DNA of 64,000 bases from Mycobacteriales bacterium (GTDB lineage: Bacteria > Actinomycetota > Actinomycetes > Mycobacteriales > QHCA01): contig JBBPZR010000002.1 of the NCBI GenBank assembly GCA_038276285.1, positions 87,454-151,453 on the forward strand, read 5' to 3'. The notes beneath the pieces are model-generated. The model saw only the letters and a list, made by a program, of their open reading frames with translations. It made no database searches and was not told the DNA's origin. A program made the position numbers and the translations under genes. Shown here piece by piece: positions 37,818 through 57,563 of this stretch. The stretch's first letter is position 1, and every line of letters begins with the position of its first letter.

Positions 37818-37871
37818 CCCAGATCCAGCCCGGCAGCCGACGTATGGCACCATAGCTGGTACCCTATGTAG

Positions 37872-38093
37872 GTGAACAAAACCACGGTCTACCTGACTGA
37901 CGACCTGAAAGCGCTGCTAGCCCGCATGGCCGCTGCGACGGGCCAGTCGGAGGCGGCCTTGATCCGGCAGGCGATTGCGGGAATGGCCCGCAGCGCAGTA
38001 CGTCCCCGGCCCACGGGCGCCCTCTTCGCCAGCGGGGACGCATCTCTCTCTGAGCACGCCGACGAGGCACTCGCCGGCTTCGGCGACCGCTGA
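37872..38093 (+). CDS. vapB: Ribbon-helix-helix (CopG-like) antitoxin, VapB-type
   Basis: 73 aa (MNKTTVYLTDDLKALLARMAAATGQSEAALIRQAI). It ends 2 nt before the PIN gene. Confidence 0.8.
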   Translation: MNKTTVYLTDDLKALLARMAAATGQSEAALIRQAIAGMARSAVRPRPTGALFASGDASLSEHADEALAGFGDR

Positions 38094-38095
38094 GC

Positions 38096-38512
38096 ATGCT
38101 CATCTGCGACACCAGCGGCCTGATCGCCTACTTCGACGCAAGCGACGCGCATCACCGGCCGGTGAGCGCGGCCATCGACGCCGACCCCGGGCCGTTCATC
38201 GTCTCGCCCTACGTCATGGCCGAGGTCGATTATCTCGCTACCCGCCGCGGCGTACCGGCAGAGCTAGCGGCTCTGAGCCAACTCCACAGTGGCGCCTGGG
38301 AACTTCCCTGCTGCGGCAGCGCCGACATCCGCGGCGCGTCCGACATCATCGACCGCTACGCCGACCACAACATCGGTTTGACCGACGCCTCACTCGTGGT
38401 TCTCGCCGGCCGCTACCGAACGAACCGGCTGTTGACCCTTGACCATCGACACTTCCGCGTCGTCCGCACTATGACTGGCGGGCCGTTCAGGCTCGTACCG
38501 GCACAGCTCTGA
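38096..38512 (+). CDS. vapC: PIN-domain ribonuclease toxin, VapC-type
   Basis: 138 aa with MLICDTSGLIAYFD (the first acidic PIN residue) and later conserved acidic residues (E..D, DASLV). Confidence 0.85.
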   Translation: MLICDTSGLIAYFDASDAHHRPVSAAIDADPGPFIVSPYVMAEVDYLATRRGVPAELAALSQLHSGAWELPCCGSADIRGASDIIDRYADHNIGLTDASLVVLAGRYRTNRLLTLDHRHFRVVRTMTGGPFRLVPAQL

Positions 38513-38523
38513 GCGGGCACAAC

Positions 38524-39156
38524 ATGGTCGCTGGGGACGGGGAGTTCGCCGCGGTCGTCTTCGATCTTGGTGGAGTCCTGATCGAGTGGGACCCGCGCCA
38601 TCTTTACCGCCACCTGCTGCCAGACGCCCAGGCCATTGAGGACTACCTCATCACGGTCGGTTTCATGGCATGGAACTCCCGCCAGGACGCCGGCCGACCC
38701 TGGGCTGAGGCGGTAGCCGACCTCTCAGCCGAGCACCCGCAGTACGCCGAACTCATCGCCGCCTATCCGGACCGCTTCGAAGAGTCCCTTGTCGGGCCGT
38801 TGGATGAGGCCGTTGGAGTGTTGAACGACCTCTACCGCACCGGTGTGCGCCTGCTGGCCCTGACGAACTGGTCCGCCGAGACATTCGTTCACGCGCGAAA
38901 GCGCTTCGGGTTTCTCGAGCTGTTCGAAGCCATCGTCGTATCCGGGGAAGAGCGGCTGTCGAAGCCCGATCCGGCCGTCTTCGGTGTTCTGATCGACCGC
39001 TACGGGCTGCTCCCGTCGCGCACCGTGTACATCGACGACGCGGAGGCCAACGTCGAGGTGGCCCGGGGGCTCGGGATGCATGCCATCCGGTTCACTTCAG
39101 GCCCGAGGCTCCGCGAGCAGCTCAGAGCGGTCGGCCTGCTCGTTGGCCGGCCCTAG
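38524..39156 (+). CDS. HAD-superfamily hydrolase (subfamily IA-like)
   Basis: 210 aa with motif I VVFDLGGVLI, motif II LTNWS, and the C-terminal YIDD acidic motif. Confidence 0.85.
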   Translation: MVAGDGEFAAVVFDLGGVLIEWDPRHLYRHLLPDAQAIEDYLITVGFMAWNSRQDAGRPWAEAVADLSAEHPQYAELIAAYPDRFEESLVGPLDEAVGVLNDLYRTGVRLLALTNWSAETFVHARKRFGFLELFEAIVVSGEERLSKPDPAVFGVLIDRYGLLPSRTVYIDDAEANVEVARGLGMHAIRFTSGPRLREQLRAVGLLVGRP

Positions 39157-39171
39157 CCCGTCCGCAAATGA

Positions 39172-54860: not shown

Positions 54861-55057
54861 GTCCCAGGCCAATTTCCGGGCTCAGGCTGGAAGTCGTGTC
54901 GCGGCCCGGTCACCACGCTTCGCTGAGAAGAGCCAATCATGCCGACGTCGGCACAATAGGGCTTATGCCGACTCGGCGCGGATCAGCTGCGGGGTAAAGG
55001 GGTATCCCGCCCGCCGAAGTCGAGCAAGTCTAGTACTGTCAGAACTGCAGCCTATGG

Positions 55058-55078
55058 AGGCTGGTCTCTCACCAGCCT
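55058..55078 (-). terminator. Stem-loop downstream of the TPR gene (possible terminator)
   Basis: AGGCTGGT-CTCTC-ACCAGCCT is an 8-bp perfect stem about 45 nt past the stop at 55121. There is no U-tract. Confidence 0.3.
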
Positions 55079-55120
55079 GGGTCTGCGGATTCACTCACCC
55101 GGGTCGATTTCAGCGTCCGC

Positions 55121-57361
55121 TCACAATCTCGGCGGGGTCGGAATACTCCTATACCGGACCTTGAATATTTCGGGGGGCCGGTCTGGCGGTCGCAGTATCG
55201 GCGGTTGCGGCAACAGTCCCCGTCGATCACCGCGTTCCAAAAGCTCTACCTCGAGCACGCCGATCTTCAGTCGGCTAGAATTAGGGAGCAGATATGCCGC
55301 GAGGGGAAGCAAGAGCAATACAGCAATGATCGCCGCGAACCCGGCCGAACTCAAGCGATGCTCCCAAAGTAGCCACGTGATTAGGCCTAGCAGCACGATG
55401 GCCAGGCCAGTCACGACTGGCGCGAATCTGCGAGGCAGGGGACGCGGGCCGCTGGCCAGAGACCGTATGTACTTATCGGCGGTAATGAGTTCCACGCTGC
55501 CAGCACCGGCAATCTGAGCCGCGCGCCGCCATGCCGCGCGTGCGTCACGGAGATGACGTAGTAGTAGTTGCGCCTCCCCCTCAAGGAGGAAGAGTCTTGC
55601 TTGGTCGCGGCGCTCGTGCGGCGGCAGCGTTTCGCTTGCCTCCCACAGGGACTTAGCCTTGCCGATGTCGTCCAGGGCGGCCCGCGCCTCCTCGCGGTCG
55701 CTGTCTCGATCGGCTAGCGTGAACCGGATTCCAGCCCTCACTCCGTAGAGCCGCCACGTTGTCTGCCAGTTCGCATCGACGCTAAGCCGGATCGCCTGGT
55801 CTATCCCAGCTTCCGCTTCGTAAGGCAGATCCAGCCGGTTGAGGACGTCGGCGAGCGTTGCGAAAGCTGTCGGCGAAGCATCGCCGAGGCTAATCGACTC
55901 CTGACAGGCCTGGCGGGCCTCAGAAAGATCGTCACCAATTTGCAATAGGACGTATCCAATTCCCTCATATGCCTGCGACAAGGTATCGGTGGAGCCGCTG
56001 TTCCGCGCCAAATCGCGGGCCTTCTCATATGCGAGCAACGCCTCCAGATGCCTCCCAAGGGCGCAATAAGCTCCTCCGCGCCCAACCTGCAGCCTCCCAT
56101 CTGCTGGGTATCTGAGGCGCTCGGCTTCGCGATAGTCATCTAGTGCCTCAGCCTCCATGCCAAGTCGGCAGCGAACTCCAGCTCTCAAAAAGTAGGCGGG
56201 CGCATTACCAGGATCTTGCTCAATGACCTGGTCTATGACGCGCTTTGCCTCAGCTGGCCGCCCCGCGATGTTTAGTACGGCAGCCCGCGTACGCTGCAGG
56301 TTCGGATATCGATCGTTGATGCTGGCGGCTTTATCGTAGGCCTTTAGCGCCTCGTCGTACTGGCGATGCAACGCCCTACTGGAACCGAGGCTCATCCATG
56401 AACCAACGTCGGTATCCGCGCGCCTGACCAGTCGCTCATACATGGCGGCGGCGGACGCGAAGCGATCTAGCTCGTAGAGAATTGCTGCCAGCCACTCATC
56501 CAGATCAAGACTCCGCTCGAGAGTATCGGAGTAGCCATGTTTACGCGCCTTATTGAAAGCGGAGAGTGCCCGCGCAAACAGCCGCCGAGATTCTCGATGT
56601 TCCACTCCATCTGCTCCGCCGAGTTGGTACAGGCAGGCACCACGCCAGACGTGGAGGTTGGCGACGTCCGCAAAGCCGCGTTCGAGAGCATCATCAAAAA
56701 GGCTGAGAGCAGCCCCGTAATCTCGGGCGACGGTGTACGCCCGGAACCCAGAGCCGAACTCCGCTTCGCCCGGGGCCGCAGCTGGCTCTTCGGACGGTTG
56801 CTCCTCGAATTGTGGGGTGAAGTCCTTAGTCAGCGTCCGCATGCGGTCCGCCTCAGCCGCATCAAAGAGAATGCCTTGAACCGAGCCGCCAGGTCGACTG
56901 AAGTCAGTCATCACCTGTACTGCGAAGTCGAGGGGGCCATTACTCGAAAAAGGACGGGCGTTGGGGATTCGATCGTAGGCATCGAACAGGAACGTCTCCG
57001 GCACGCCGACGTATACGGGGGCAGACGCTCGCAGTTTGGCGAGCCGGCCGGGAAGCTCATCAGCATGCTCGATGAGCAGCACGGCCTCGGAACCCTTGGG
57101 AACGTCATGGGTCCATGGCGCGACGTCATTTGCTTCAAGGTAGGGAACGCCCCGCACAGCCGGAGCTACGAAGGTGGCCATTGCACGGGCAGACTCGGTG
57201 ACTAGGTCTTCCAGCAGCCGGGCGAGCCCTTGAGCGTCGTCTTCATCACGCAGCAGCACGAGGAAGGCGTACCGCTGGTCCGACCGGTCGGCTTCCAATG
57301 CGTCCATGTTGGACAATCTTGCCTTAGTTGCGCGCAGGCCTGCAGCGTTCCTCCCTCCCAT
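55121..57361 (-). CDS. TPR-repeat protein with an unknown N-terminal domain and C-terminal TM helices; lower GC than its surroundings
   Basis: 746 aa. The central roughly 400 aa are TPR-like repeats with a recurring A..Y/F....A...P pattern. The C-terminus has two hydrophobic helices (VVTGLAIVLLGLITWLLW, FAAIIAVLLLLPLAAYLL). The start is Met at 57361 or 57307. Codon usage is visibly more A/T-rich than in the neighbours. Confidence 0.75.
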   Translation of the reverse strand: MGGRNAAGLRATKARLSNMDALEADRSDQRYAFLVLLRDEDDAQGLARLLEDLVTESARAMATFVAPAVRGVPYLEANDVAPWTHDVPKGSEAVLLIEHADELPGRLAKLRASAPVYVGVPETFLFDAYDRIPNARPFSSNGPLDFAVQVMTDFSRPGGSVQGILFDAAEADRMRTLTKDFTPQFEEQPSEEPAAAPGEAEFGSGFRAYTVARDYGAALSLFDDALERGFADVANLHVWRGACLYQLGGADGVEHRESRRLFARALSAFNKARKHGYSDTLERSLDLDEWLAAILYELDRFASAAAMYERLVRRADTDVGSWMSLGSSRALHRQYDEALKAYDKAASINDRYPNLQRTRAAVLNIAGRPAEAKRVIDQVIEQDPGNAPAYFLRAGVRCRLGMEAEALDDYREAERLRYPADGRLQVGRGGAYCALGRHLEALLAYEKARDLARNSGSTDTLSQAYEGIGYVLLQIGDDLSEARQACQESISLGDASPTAFATLADVLNRLDLPYEAEAGIDQAIRLSVDANWQTTWRLYGVRAGIRFTLADRDSDREEARAALDDIGKAKSLWEASETLPPHERRDQARLFLLEGEAQLLLRHLRDARAAWRRAAQIAGAGSVELITADKYIRSLASGPRPLPRRFAPVVTGLAIVLLGLITWLLWEHRLSSAGFAAIIAVLLLLPLAAYLLPNSSRLKIGVLEVELLERGDRRGLLPQPPILRPPDRPPEIFKVRYRSIPTPPRL

Positions 57362-57486
57362 CGGGCGGCGTGACCGGAGCTGCGAGGAAGATCCCGGAGA
57401 ACAGCTAGGGCCAGCCCGACAACAACACGGTAGTCACCGGGCCATGTTCGTATGCCCTCTTGACACCCCCTCATGGGTGCCGCCGT

Positions 57487-57563
57487 GGTGGAGCTGAGGG
57501 GATTCGAACCCCTGACCCCCTCGATGCGAACGAGGTGCGCTACCGGACTGCGCTACAGCCCCT
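57487..57563 (-). tRNA. tRNA-Ala (anticodon CGC), CCA encoded
   Basis: Hand-folded sequence: GGGGCTG TA GCGC AGTCCGGTA GCGC A CCTCG TTCGCAT CGAGG GGGTC AGGGG TTCGAAT CCCCT CAGCTCC A CCA. It has the G3:U70 identity pair and a canonical T-loop. Confidence 0.92.

What the first reader, a model, noticed from the sequence alone, without database searches (positions are those of the whole stretch)
37860..57563. A roughly 20 kb accessory block next to tRNA-Ala that interrupts a conserved backbone and has no integrase
Seen in the sequence: everything between pmt (ends 37817) and tRNA-Ala(CGC) (57487-57563) is non-housekeeping. It comprises vapBC, a HAD hydrolase, the EACC1 operon, the heme locus, a decayed stretch and a lower-GC TPR gene. 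The 3' end of the tRNA faces the block, which is the usual geometry for tRNA-targeted islands. Base composition is uneven by eye: 47.6-49.1 kb and 54.0-57.4 kb are noticeably more A/T-rich than the rest. I found no integrase, no transposase and no direct repeat of the tRNA 3' end. From memory, the flanking genes match the M. tuberculosis Rv1002c and Rv0996-Rv0993 neighbourhoods. Inference: this is an old, domesticated or mosaic island.
Basis: partly seen in the sequence, partly recalled or inferred. Interest (0 to 1): 0.55.

Follow-up and report, generated by a model that had tools for sequence, protein, structure and literature searches.

The report
Integrase-less accessory block beside tRNA-Ala
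A 19.7-kb stretch of strain-specific genes sits in a slot between a tRNA-Ala gene and the conserved pmt gene where related bacteria carry either almost nothing or other inserted DNA, so it is a real but ordinary patchwork genomic island that has no mobility genes of its own.

Summary
The block runs from 37818 to 57485 (19,668 bp). It lies between the pmt stop codon and the 3' end of tRNA-Ala(CGC), which is at 57486-57562 on the minus strand.

The block is not core:
- Two relatives with 76-77% Glp identity have only TauE-Rrf2 there (1.5-2.5 kb).
- A more distant relative has tRNA and pmt about 150 nt apart.
- Two other relatives carry a tyrosine integrase plus an IS, or a large serine recombinase, right after the same tRNA.
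- Homology stops at the tRNA 3' end and at the pmt stop.
- No block gene is found in the ±10 kb fetched from these relatives.

The block has no integrase, transposase, att repeat, phage protein or plasmid counterpart.

Composition is mildly shifted: GC is 66.6% against 69-72% in the flanks, and gene GC3 is 0.82 against 0.87 (p≈1e-4). Two segments are clearly atypical, about 46-49 kb and 54-57.4 kb.

Several modules occur alone elsewhere: the DUF6424 gene, the EACC1-like/caspase pair (followed by IS110 in two other contexts) and a near-orphan TPR gene.

Best reading: a mosaic, now immobile island at a tRNA-linked integration hotspot, rich in conflict-type genes. This is a new member of a known kind, of low to moderate interest.

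The parts
36369..37817 (+). pmt (protein O-mannosyltransferase), the left conserved flank. Homology to relatives ends at its stop codon.
   Evidence: NCBIfam NF058602. blastn homology to L081/L084/L001 ends at 37815-37824. Sequence downstream of the stop differs in every relative.
37818..57485 (.). The accessory block itself (19,668 bp)
   Evidence: No blastn or tblastn match in the loci fetched from L001, L081-L084, L086, L087, L170 or L171. GC 66.6% against 69.4% and 71.9% in the flanks.
37872..38093 (+). RHH (CopG-type) antitoxin, VapB-like
   Evidence: PF01402, 34.3 bits against a cutoff of 20.5. Its stop lies 2 nt before the PIN gene's ATG.
38096..38512 (+). PIN-domain toxin, VapC-like
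   Evidence: PF01850, 44.5 bits against a cutoff of 23.6
38524..39156 (+). HAD-IA family hydrolase
   Evidence: PF00702 and PF13419. TIGR01509, 51 bits against a cutoff of 29.4.
39172..40545 (-). Alpha/beta-hydrolase-like protein (457 aa), last gene of the minus-strand operon
   Evidence: Only weak Pfam hits: DUF900 E=2e-4 and Abhydrolase_1 E=1.4e-3. Lies 24 nt downstream of the S8 gene.
40570..42495 (-). S8 subtilase-family peptidase (start codon uncertain)
   Evidence: PF00082 E=1e-41. PADLOC 'subtilase' PDLC03014 E=2e-50.
42440..44530 (-). Caspase-domain protein of the EACC1-associated type, with a multi-TM C-terminal region. Its GTG start overlaps the EACC1 stop (GTGA).
   Evidence: NF047832, 159.8 bits against a cutoff of 140. 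PF00656. Translation. 74% identical over residues 8-339 to the caspases of L172/L173.
44527..44919 (-). EACC1-like small protein (130 aa) with a central Gly-rich hydrophobic segment
   Evidence: PF19953 E=0.037, below the cutoff. 15 of 24 close homologs hit PF19953, best E=1.7e-4. Lies 5' of the caspase. The family has 1187 hits.
45085..45876 (-). DUF6424 protein
   Evidence: PF19988 E=5e-69. The neighbourhoods of 80 metagenome homologs do not include the other block genes.
45873..47072 (-). Protein of unknown function (399 aa), overlapping the DUF6424 gene's start by 4 nt
   Evidence: No Pfam, NCBIfam, PADLOC or PHROG hit. GC 63.8%.
47097..47540 (-). Small, probably membrane protein (about 147 aa)
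   Evidence: GC3 frame plot. Weak DUF4267 and EamA hits.
47580..49115 (+). Protein of unknown function (up to 511 aa) in the lower-GC segment
   Evidence: GC 63.4%, GC3 0.78, codon adaptation 0.53. No family hit.
48988..50767 (+). Two genes of unknown function: up to 165 aa (48988-49485) and about 428 aa (49481-50767). The 165-aa ORF overlaps the end of the 47580-49115 gene, so its true start is probably later. Both starts uncertain.
   Evidence: Frame plot. Only a weak DinB_2 hit.
50770..52140 (+). DyP-type peroxidase-like protein
   Evidence: TIGR01413 E=5.5e-26, below the cutoff. PF21105 weak.
52165..53997 (+). Animal-haem-peroxidase family protein
   Evidence: PF03098 E=2e-109
53998..55120 (.).
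   Evidence: Frame plot. No Pfam hit in any of six frames, none in NCBIfam, and no plasmid or phage match.
55121..57307 (-). Near-orphan TPR protein (728 aa): a rare N-terminal domain of about 160 aa, TPR repeats, two TM helices and a Pro-rich tail. Its composition is atypical.
   Evidence: GC3 0.65, codon adaptation 0.405. Only one full-length homolog. That homolog's contig L168 shares only 55102-57327. Sequence. N-terminal domain family.
57486..57562 (-). tRNA-Ala(CGC). Its 3' end is the right boundary of the block.
   Evidence: ARAGORN. In an alignment with 7 relatives, homology ends at the tRNA 3' end.
57597..58427 (-). glpR/sepX divisome gene, first gene of the right conserved flank (followed by rimJ, glp, galU and MTHFS up to 61964)
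   Evidence: NCBIfam. Synteny with L081-L087, L170 and L171.

Best explanation
The space between the 3' end of tRNA-Ala(CGC) and the stop codon of pmt is a chromosomal insertion hotspot in this actinobacterial lineage.

Shown:
- The conserved order is galU-glp-rimJ-glpR-tRNA-Ala | pmt-DUF3817-rsmI-metG-tatD.
- What lies at the bar differs in nearly every relative examined.
- In this genome the slot holds 19.7 kb that none of the fetched relative loci contains.

Inferred:
- The block accumulated from several separate acquisitions.
- At least some of these were probably delivered by elements that integrate at or next to the tRNA 3' end, as the integrase-bearing and serine-recombinase-bearing elements in two relatives do.
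- The recombinase genes and att repeats were then lost, so the block is now fixed in place.
- The most atypical DNA (54-57.4 kb, including the TPR gene) abuts the tRNA. This fits newer DNA entering at the tRNA side.

The cargo is accessory and largely of the 'conflict' type:
- a VapBC-like toxin-antitoxin pair;
- an EACC1-like/caspase pair, which in a studied homologous system is a protease-activated pore-forming suicide module, extended here by an S8 peptidase and an alpha/beta-hydrolase-like gene;
- a membrane TPR protein whose N-terminal domain recurs on STAND NTPases;
- a DyP/haem-peroxidase operon and several orphan genes.
For: 1. **Absence from relatives.**
 - L081, L082 and L084 have tRNA-Ala, TauE, Rrf2 and pmt within 1.5-2.5 kb.
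 - L171 has the tRNA and pmt about 150 nt apart.
 - No block gene gives a tblastn hit in any fetched relative locus.
2. **Sharp boundaries.** blastn homology ends at 37817-37824 and resumes at 57484-57486. The 8-genome alignment loses all conservation immediately after the tRNA.
3. **Same slot used by mobile elements.** L083 has a tyrosine integrase plus an rve transposase after the tRNA. L086 has a large serine recombinase plus an M78 peptidase and an HTH protein. L087, L170 and L001 have other contents.
4. **Composition.** Block GC3 is lower than the backbone (p≈1e-4). There are two strongly atypical segments and a TPR gene 6.9 sd off the backbone.
5. **Modularity.**
 - DUF6424 homologs in 80 loci lack the neighbouring block genes.
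 - The TPR gene is shared with L168 as a single gene in a 62%-GC context with different flanks.
 - The EACC1-like/caspase pair occurs in two contexts in L172 and L173. Each is followed by an IS110 transposase and lacks the S8 and hydrolase genes.
6. **The tRNA-side junction is not an assembly artefact.** An independent Logan contig (L169) spans 54906-57514 at 100% identity.
7. **Published surveys.** Fewer than half of HGT hotspots encode an integrase, and 27% lack any integrase or transposase (PMC5635113).
Against: - No att repeat, integrase remnant or IS fragment is present in the block. Integrase-mediated entry is therefore inferred from relatives, not seen here.
- No att repeats were found in L083 or L086 either, within the 3-8 kb available.
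- Most of the block (38-45 kb and 49-54 kb) is only marginally different in composition from the backbone. This fits old or within-clade transfer but is weak evidence on its own.
- All relatives are distant (Glp 61-79% identical). The order and number of events cannot be resolved.
- Only ±10 kb of each relative was seen, so block genes could lie elsewhere in those genomes.
- The compositional gradient is not monotonic: a second anomaly lies mid-block at 46-49 kb.
Confidence: 0.7

Rival explanations
1. A single 19.7-kb island from one donor was acquired in one event at the tRNA-Ala site. It then lost its integrase and att sites but is otherwise intact.
For: - One continuous block with sharp boundaries at the tRNA 3' end and the pmt stop.
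- Genes are tightly packed in a few operons.
- Integrase-bearing elements use the same site in L083 and L086.
Against: - There are three compositional classes within the block.
- Each of three tested parts occurs elsewhere without its window neighbours. These are DUF6424, the TPR gene, and the EACC1-like/caspase pair, which is flanked by IS110.
- No plasmid or phage record carries more than one domain-level match.
Confidence: 0.14
2. The block entered, wholly or in pieces, by homologous recombination at the conserved flanking genes (pmt/rsmI on one side, tRNA-Ala/glpR/glp on the other). The incoming DNA came from a related strain, and no site-specific recombinase was involved.
For: - No mobility gene or att repeat is present.
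- Many hotspots lack mobile elements and show elevated recombination in flanking core genes (PMC5635113).
- The flanks are strongly conserved across relatives.
Against: - The break falls at the 3' end of the tRNA in all 8 genomes, and recombinases sit there in two relatives. This points to site-specific integration at this locus.
- Homologous recombination only moves an existing island between strains. It does not explain how the island was first built.
Confidence: 0.12
3. The region is ancestral and was deleted or replaced in the sampled relatives. This would be differential loss, not gain.
For: - Much of the block has near-native GC3 of 0.82-0.88.
- glpR and pmt are linked across distant actinobacteria, with variable filler between them.
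Against: - It would need independent, precise losses in every relative.
- The most distant syntenic relative (L171) has the tRNA and pmt about 150 nt apart.
- The TPR segment and the 46-49 kb segment are compositionally foreign.
- Several block parts are patchily distributed and linked to IS elements elsewhere.
Confidence: 0.04

Closest known systems
tRNA-associated genomic islands (classical Hacker/Kaper-type islands)
   Same: - Larger than 10 kb.
- Lies directly at the 3' end of a tRNA gene.
- Absent from relatives.
- Carries accessory cargo.
- Deviates in composition.
- The same tRNA is occupied by integrase-bearing elements in relatives.
   Different: No integrase, no flanking direct repeats and no other mobility gene. 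Composition is heterogeneous rather than uniform, so it looks like a composite remnant rather than one element.
Horizontal-transfer hotspots between core genes without recognisable mobile elements (Oliveira et al. 2017, PMC5635113)
   Same: A fixed slot between conserved core genes holds different content in nearly every genome examined. It lacks mobility-associated proteins and is enriched in defence-type functions.
   Different: That concept is defined within species from many genomes. Here only seven or eight distant relatives (61-79% protein identity) could be compared, and recombination at the flanks was not measured.
Defence islands / EACC1-caspase two-gene conflict system (Kaur et al. 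2020, PMC7159879; Evans et al. 2025, bioRxiv 10.1101/2025.11.14.688446)
   Same: - A small 5' gene with a Gly-rich hydrophobic core, followed by a caspase-domain protein with a variable C-terminal region.
- The caspase passes NCBIfam's 'EACC1-associated type' cutoff.
- A toxin-antitoxin pair and other conflict-type proteins lie in the same block.
   Different: - The small protein matches Pfam EACC1 only below threshold.
- The pair is followed by an S8 peptidase and an alpha/beta-hydrolase-like gene. These are absent from the closest homologous pairs.
- Half of the block (the peroxidase operon, DUF6424 and the orphans) has no known defence role.

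Membership tests
tRNA-associated genomic island | Present in this genome, absent from the homologous site of related genomes | tested here: met
   L081, L082, L084 and L171 have the tRNA and pmt 0.15-2.5 kb apart. No block gene is found in the fetched loci.
tRNA-associated genomic island | Inserted at the 3' end of a tRNA gene | tested here: met
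   Homology among 8 genomes ends at the tRNA-Ala 3' end. The tRNA's 3' end faces the block.
tRNA-associated genomic island | Base composition or codon usage different from the rest of the genome | tested here: inconclusive
   Clear for 54-57.4 kb and 46-49 kb, and significant for gene GC3 overall (p≈1e-4). The rest is marginal, and the baseline is only 44 kb of flanks.
tRNA-associated genomic island | Flanking direct repeats (att sites) derived from the tRNA 3' end | tested here: not met
   The best match scores 12, against a shuffled null with mean 11.9 and maximum 15. No flanking repeats.
tRNA-associated genomic island | Integrase or other mobility gene | tested here: not met
   Nothing in Pfam, NCBIfam or PHROGs on all ORFs, nor in the six-frame scan of the unassigned stretch. 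tblastn with the relatives' recombinases was also negative.
Prophage or prophage remnant | Phage structural, replication or lysis genes | tested here: not met
   PHROGs on 10 block proteins gave only a generic TPR match. No blastn match for 53861-57485 in the phage collection.
Integrative conjugative or mobilizable element, or integrated plasmid | Relaxase, conjugation or replication genes, or similarity to known plasmids | tested here: not met
   No such Pfam domains. Plasmid searches gave only domain-level hits to the S8, caspase and peroxidase genes.
EACC1-caspase two-gene conflict system | 3' gene with an N-terminal caspase domain of the EACC1-associated type and a variable C-terminal region | tested here: met
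   NF047832, 159.8 bits against a cutoff of 140. The N-terminal 339 aa are 74% identical to the L172/L173 caspases, and the C-terminal region is not shared.
EACC1-caspase two-gene conflict system | 5' gene encoding the EACC1 domain (a small protein with a conserved hydrophobic helix containing a Gly patch) | tested here: inconclusive
   PF19953 E=0.037 (14.5 bits against a cutoff of 23.6), covering profile positions 4-99 of 107. 15 of 24 homologs hit PF19953, best E=1.7e-4. The motif VVAAGGLLITLG is present. Position and start/stop overlap with the caspase are as expected.
Type II toxin-antitoxin system, VapBC type | Adjacent small antitoxin with a DNA-binding fold and a PIN-domain toxin | tested here: met
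   RHH_1 and PIN are both above the Pfam cutoffs, and the genes are 2 nt apart. The NCBIfam VapC subfamily model scores only 15.6 bits against a cutoff of 73.6, so this is VapC-like and not an assigned subfamily.

The most novel reading that the evidence does not exclude
The block may be a defence island whose parts are not yet described.

- A four-gene protease cascade. An EACC1-like pore former and a caspase are joined to an S8 peptidase and an alpha/beta-hydrolase-like protein. The last two could be a second protease and a second latent effector.
- A recently acquired membrane-anchored TPR protein next to the tRNA. Its unnamed N-terminal domain of about 160 aa has roughly 50 clusters among 1.84 billion representatives. 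It recurs at the ends of NACHT and AAA_16 STAND proteins, and may be a new effector or adaptor domain.

The integrase-less hotspot itself would stay ordinary under this reading.
Probability: 0.2. Interest if true: 0.5.

Novelty: new member of a known kind. Interest (0 to 1): 0.27.

Why it matters
The result gives a clean, well-bounded example of a tRNA-linked insertion hotspot in a poorly sampled lineage of uncultured Actinomycetota. The slot's ancestral state, the occupied states with recombinases, and a recombinase-free composite state can all be seen side by side.

In practice it marks 37818-57485 as strain-specific cargo rather than backbone. It also points to where conflict and defence genes and orphan genes collect in these genomes.

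It does not challenge current understanding. Integrase-less hotspots are common (PMC5635113).

Tried and rejected
- **Source genome.** The exact Glp protein is in the protein collection (P0001, on a 153,764-bp NCBI contig), but the contig could not be retrieved. No genome closer than about 79% Glp identity was found.
- **att sites.** I aligned the last 50 nt of the tRNA plus 16 nt downstream against 30-57.4 kb on both strands and found nothing above the shuffled null. The same search downstream of the tRNA in L081, L083, L084, L086 and L087 was also negative.
- **Recombinase remnants.** tblastn with the L083 integrase and rve transposase and the L086 serine recombinase gave only an artefact. 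The miscalled L086 ORF overlaps the tRNA.
- **Unassigned stretch 53998-55120.** I scanned the plus-strand ORFs, the minus-strand ORFs and all six frames against Pfam and NCBIfam and found nothing. I therefore do not call it a pseudogene.
- **TPR protein as a hidden recombinase.** Rejected. It has no recombinase domain, only TPR matches in the PDB, and two TM helices. The AlphaFold model was too poor (pLDDT 48) to justify a fold search.
- **Plasmid and phage origin.** Only domain-level matches in plasmids, and none in the one phage search (53861-57485).
- **Repeats, promoters, terminators, Rfam.** Nothing beyond chance and the tRNA itself.
- **pmt scan of genome contigs.** It returned mostly distant Vulcanimicrobiota hits. 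Only L001-L003 were informative.

Full report
**Setting**

The window is a high-GC (about 69%) actinobacterial chromosome segment.
- ARAGORN finds tRNA-Ala(cgc) at 57486-57562 on the minus strand, so its 3' end points to lower coordinates.
- I called genes by GC3 frame plots and family scans.
- The left backbone is rsmI (34812-35660, -) and pmt (36369-37817, +).
- The right backbone is glpR/sepX (57597-58427), rimJ, glp, galU (all -) and MTHFS (+).
- Glp and GlpR are conserved actinobacterial divisome genes (PMC10522489).

**Content of 37818-57485**

All of it is accessory.
- RHH antitoxin plus PIN toxin, 2 nt apart.
- A HAD-IA hydrolase.
- A minus-strand operon with four genes:
  - A 130-aa EACC1-like gene (44527-44919).
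  - A caspase (42440-44530) that passes NCBIfam's 'caspase, EACC1-associated type' cutoff (159.8 against 140 bits). It ends in a multi-TM region.
  - An S8 peptidase.
  - A 457-aa alpha/beta-hydrolase-like protein.
- DUF6424, an overlapping 399-aa unknown and a small membrane protein, all on the minus strand.
- A plus-strand run of three unknowns, a DyP-like protein and an animal-haem peroxidase (E=2e-109).
- A 1.1-kb stretch with no assignable gene.
- A 728-aa TPR protein (55121-57307, -).

The small protein matches Pfam EACC1 only weakly (E=0.037). However, 15 of 24 close homologs also hit it, with a best E-value of 1.7e-4. Its position and its GTGA overlap with the caspase start fit the published two-gene system (PMC7159879). 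In one studied system the caspase cleaves EACC1, which then forms membrane pores (bioRxiv 10.1101/2025.11.14.688446). The same preprint describes protease-activated alpha/beta-hydrolase effectors. That makes the extra S8 and hydrolase genes suggestive, but they are untested.

**Is the block absent from relatives?**

The pmt scan of species genomes gave one useful relative, L001 (a Pseudonocardiales MAG, pmt 73% identical).
- L001 shares the tatD-metG-PP2C-rsmI-pmt side.
- Downstream of pmt it has 10 kb of unrelated metabolic genes.

Homologs of Glp gave contexts for the other side.
- **L081/L082 (76%) and L084 (77%):** the order is galU-glp-rimJ-glpR-tRNA-Ala(cgc)-TauE-Rrf2-pmt-DUF3817-rsmI-metG-GNAT-tatD. 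The tRNA and pmt are 1.5-2.5 kb apart.
- **L171 (61%, 76% GC):** the tRNA and pmt are convergent and about 150 nt apart.
- **L083 (79%):** the tRNA is followed by a 107-aa ORF, a tyrosine integrase and an rve transposase.
- **L086 (77%):** the tRNA is followed by a large serine recombinase, an M78 peptidase and an HTH protein.
- **L087:** small ORFs and a MarR-like gene.
- **L170 (Frankiaceae MAG):** a trypsin-like protease and others.

Boundaries and absence:
- blastn homology between the window and these loci stops at 37817-37824 and resumes at 57484-57486.
- In an 8-genome alignment, conservation ends immediately after the tRNA.
- Downstream of the pmt stop every genome differs.
- No block protein has a tblastn hit in any of these loci. 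The window in turn has no TauE or Rrf2.
- Only ±10 kb of each relative was examined.

**Composition**

| Measure | Block | Flanks / backbone |
|---|---|---|
| GC | 66.6% | 69.4% and 71.9% |
| Mean gene GC3 | 0.82 (16 genes) | 0.869 (30 genes) |
| Tetranucleotide distance | see below | 0.148±0.019, max 0.19 |

- The GC3 difference gives Mann-Whitney p=9e-5, or 2e-4 without the TPR gene.
- Tetranucleotide distance from the flanks is 0.24-0.27 in windows spanning 44-50 kb and 0.28-0.30 in windows spanning 53-58 kb.
- It is 0.16-0.19 over roughly 37-46 kb, 0.19 for windows within 49-55 kb, and 0.21-0.23 for the windows next to the two peaks.
- The TPR gene has GC3 0.65 and codon adaptation 0.405, well outside the backbone range of 0.58-0.80.
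- The second refutation condition is therefore also not met.
- The signal is strong only for two segments, and the baseline is only the window's flanks.

**Mobility signatures**

None was found.
- No recombinase or transposase domain in any ORF or in the six-frame scan of the unassigned stretch.
- No phage families.
- No similarity to the relatives' recombinases.
- No copy of the tRNA 3' end above the shuffled null.
- No flanking repeats.
- No plasmid or phage counterpart beyond single-domain matches.
- No Rfam element other than the tRNA.

**One element or a mosaic?**

Three tests point to a mosaic.
- **DUF6424:** homologs in 80 metagenome loci never carry the adjacent block genes. The exceptions are one weak unk511-like neighbour (L140) and one DyP neighbour (L146).
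- **TPR gene:**
  - It has a single full-length homolog among 5.8 billion proteins (P0122, 73%).
  - That contig (L168, 62% GC) shares only 55102-57327 at 80% nucleotide identity.
  - It has different flanks and no tRNA.
- **EACC1-like/caspase pair:**
  - It occurs in two different contexts in one sample (L172, L173).
  - Each is followed by an IS110 transposase and lacks the S8 and hydrolase genes.

Together with the three compositional classes, this favours several acquisitions.

**Assembly check**

An independently assembled Logan contig (L169) matches 54906-57514 at 100% and reaches into the tRNA. The EACC1-like, TPR and Glp proteins are each recorded on a contig of the same length, 153,764 bp, which suggests a single contig.

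**Interpretation**

The slot between the tRNA-Ala 3' end and pmt is an insertion hotspot.
- Recombinase-bearing elements sit in it in two relatives.
- In this genome it holds a composite without any recombinase.
- The most foreign DNA lies next to the tRNA.
- Whether pieces entered by site-specific integration followed by decay, or by homologous recombination at the flanks, cannot be decided here. Both routes are documented for hotspots, and fewer than half of hotspots encode an integrase (PMC5635113).

This is a new member of a known kind.

**Side observation**

- The N-terminal domain of about 160 aa in the TPR protein has no match in the family libraries searched (Pfam, NCBIfam, PHROGs, PADLOC) and no match by sequence in the PDB.
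- It has about 50 representative clusters among 1.84 billion.
- Several of these are NACHT or AAA_16 STAND proteins with HEAT or TPR arrays and Metallophos or DUF4062 ends.
- This suggests an unnamed conflict-system domain.
- The structure model was too weak to pursue.

Noticed in passing
window 56830-57280 (-), residues about 10-170 of the TPR protein: An unnamed domain of about 160 aa with no match in Pfam, NCBIfam, PHROGs or PADLOC and none by sequence in the PDB. It has about 50 representative clusters among 1.84 billion. It sits at the N- or C-termini of proteins of 160-1850 aa. Several are NACHT or AAA_16 STAND NTPases with HEAT or TPR arrays and Metallophos or DUF4062 ends. The low-confidence model suggests an alpha/beta fold.
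   Followed up: partly
window 39172-44919 (-): The EACC1-like/caspase pair is followed in the same operon by an S8 peptidase and an alpha/beta-hydrolase-like gene. The closest homologous pairs (L172, L173) have an IS110 transposase there instead. Protease-activated alpha/beta-hydrolase effectors have been described, so this may be a compound protease-effector system.
   Followed up: partly
window 47580-53997 (+): An operon of three proteins of unknown function, a DyP-like protein and an animal-haem-peroxidase family protein. In plasmids, short stretches within 50405-51986 match two adjacent hypothetical genes in Skermanella at about 75% nucleotide identity. The peroxidase gene matches a 39-kb Streptomyces plasmid at 68%. 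Two DUF6424 loci (L140, L146) have an unk511-like or DyP-like neighbour.
   Followed up: partly
L086 10721-12814, L083 13335-14552: Relatives carry a large serine recombinase (with an M78 peptidase and an HTH protein) or a tyrosine integrase (with an rve IS) directly after the same tRNA-Ala. The L086 recombinase ORF as called runs across the tRNA and into glpR, so its end is probably miscalled.
   Followed up: partly
L081 12852-13812, L086 11056-11090, L087 12005-12040: The sequence just after the tRNA in L081 and L086, and partly in L087, shares a short motif (TTCGAAACAC..ACCG) that the window lacks. L081 also has about 1 kb of extra DNA with small ORFs between the tRNA and TauE. This may be a remnant of an element like that in L086.
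   Followed up: no
window 33626-34801 (-): A PP2C/SpoIIE-type phosphatase gene lies between metG and rsmI in the window and in L001. It is absent from that position in L081 and L084, where a GNAT gene lies next to metG on its other side, before tatD. This is a second, small variable spot in the same backbone.
   Followed up: no
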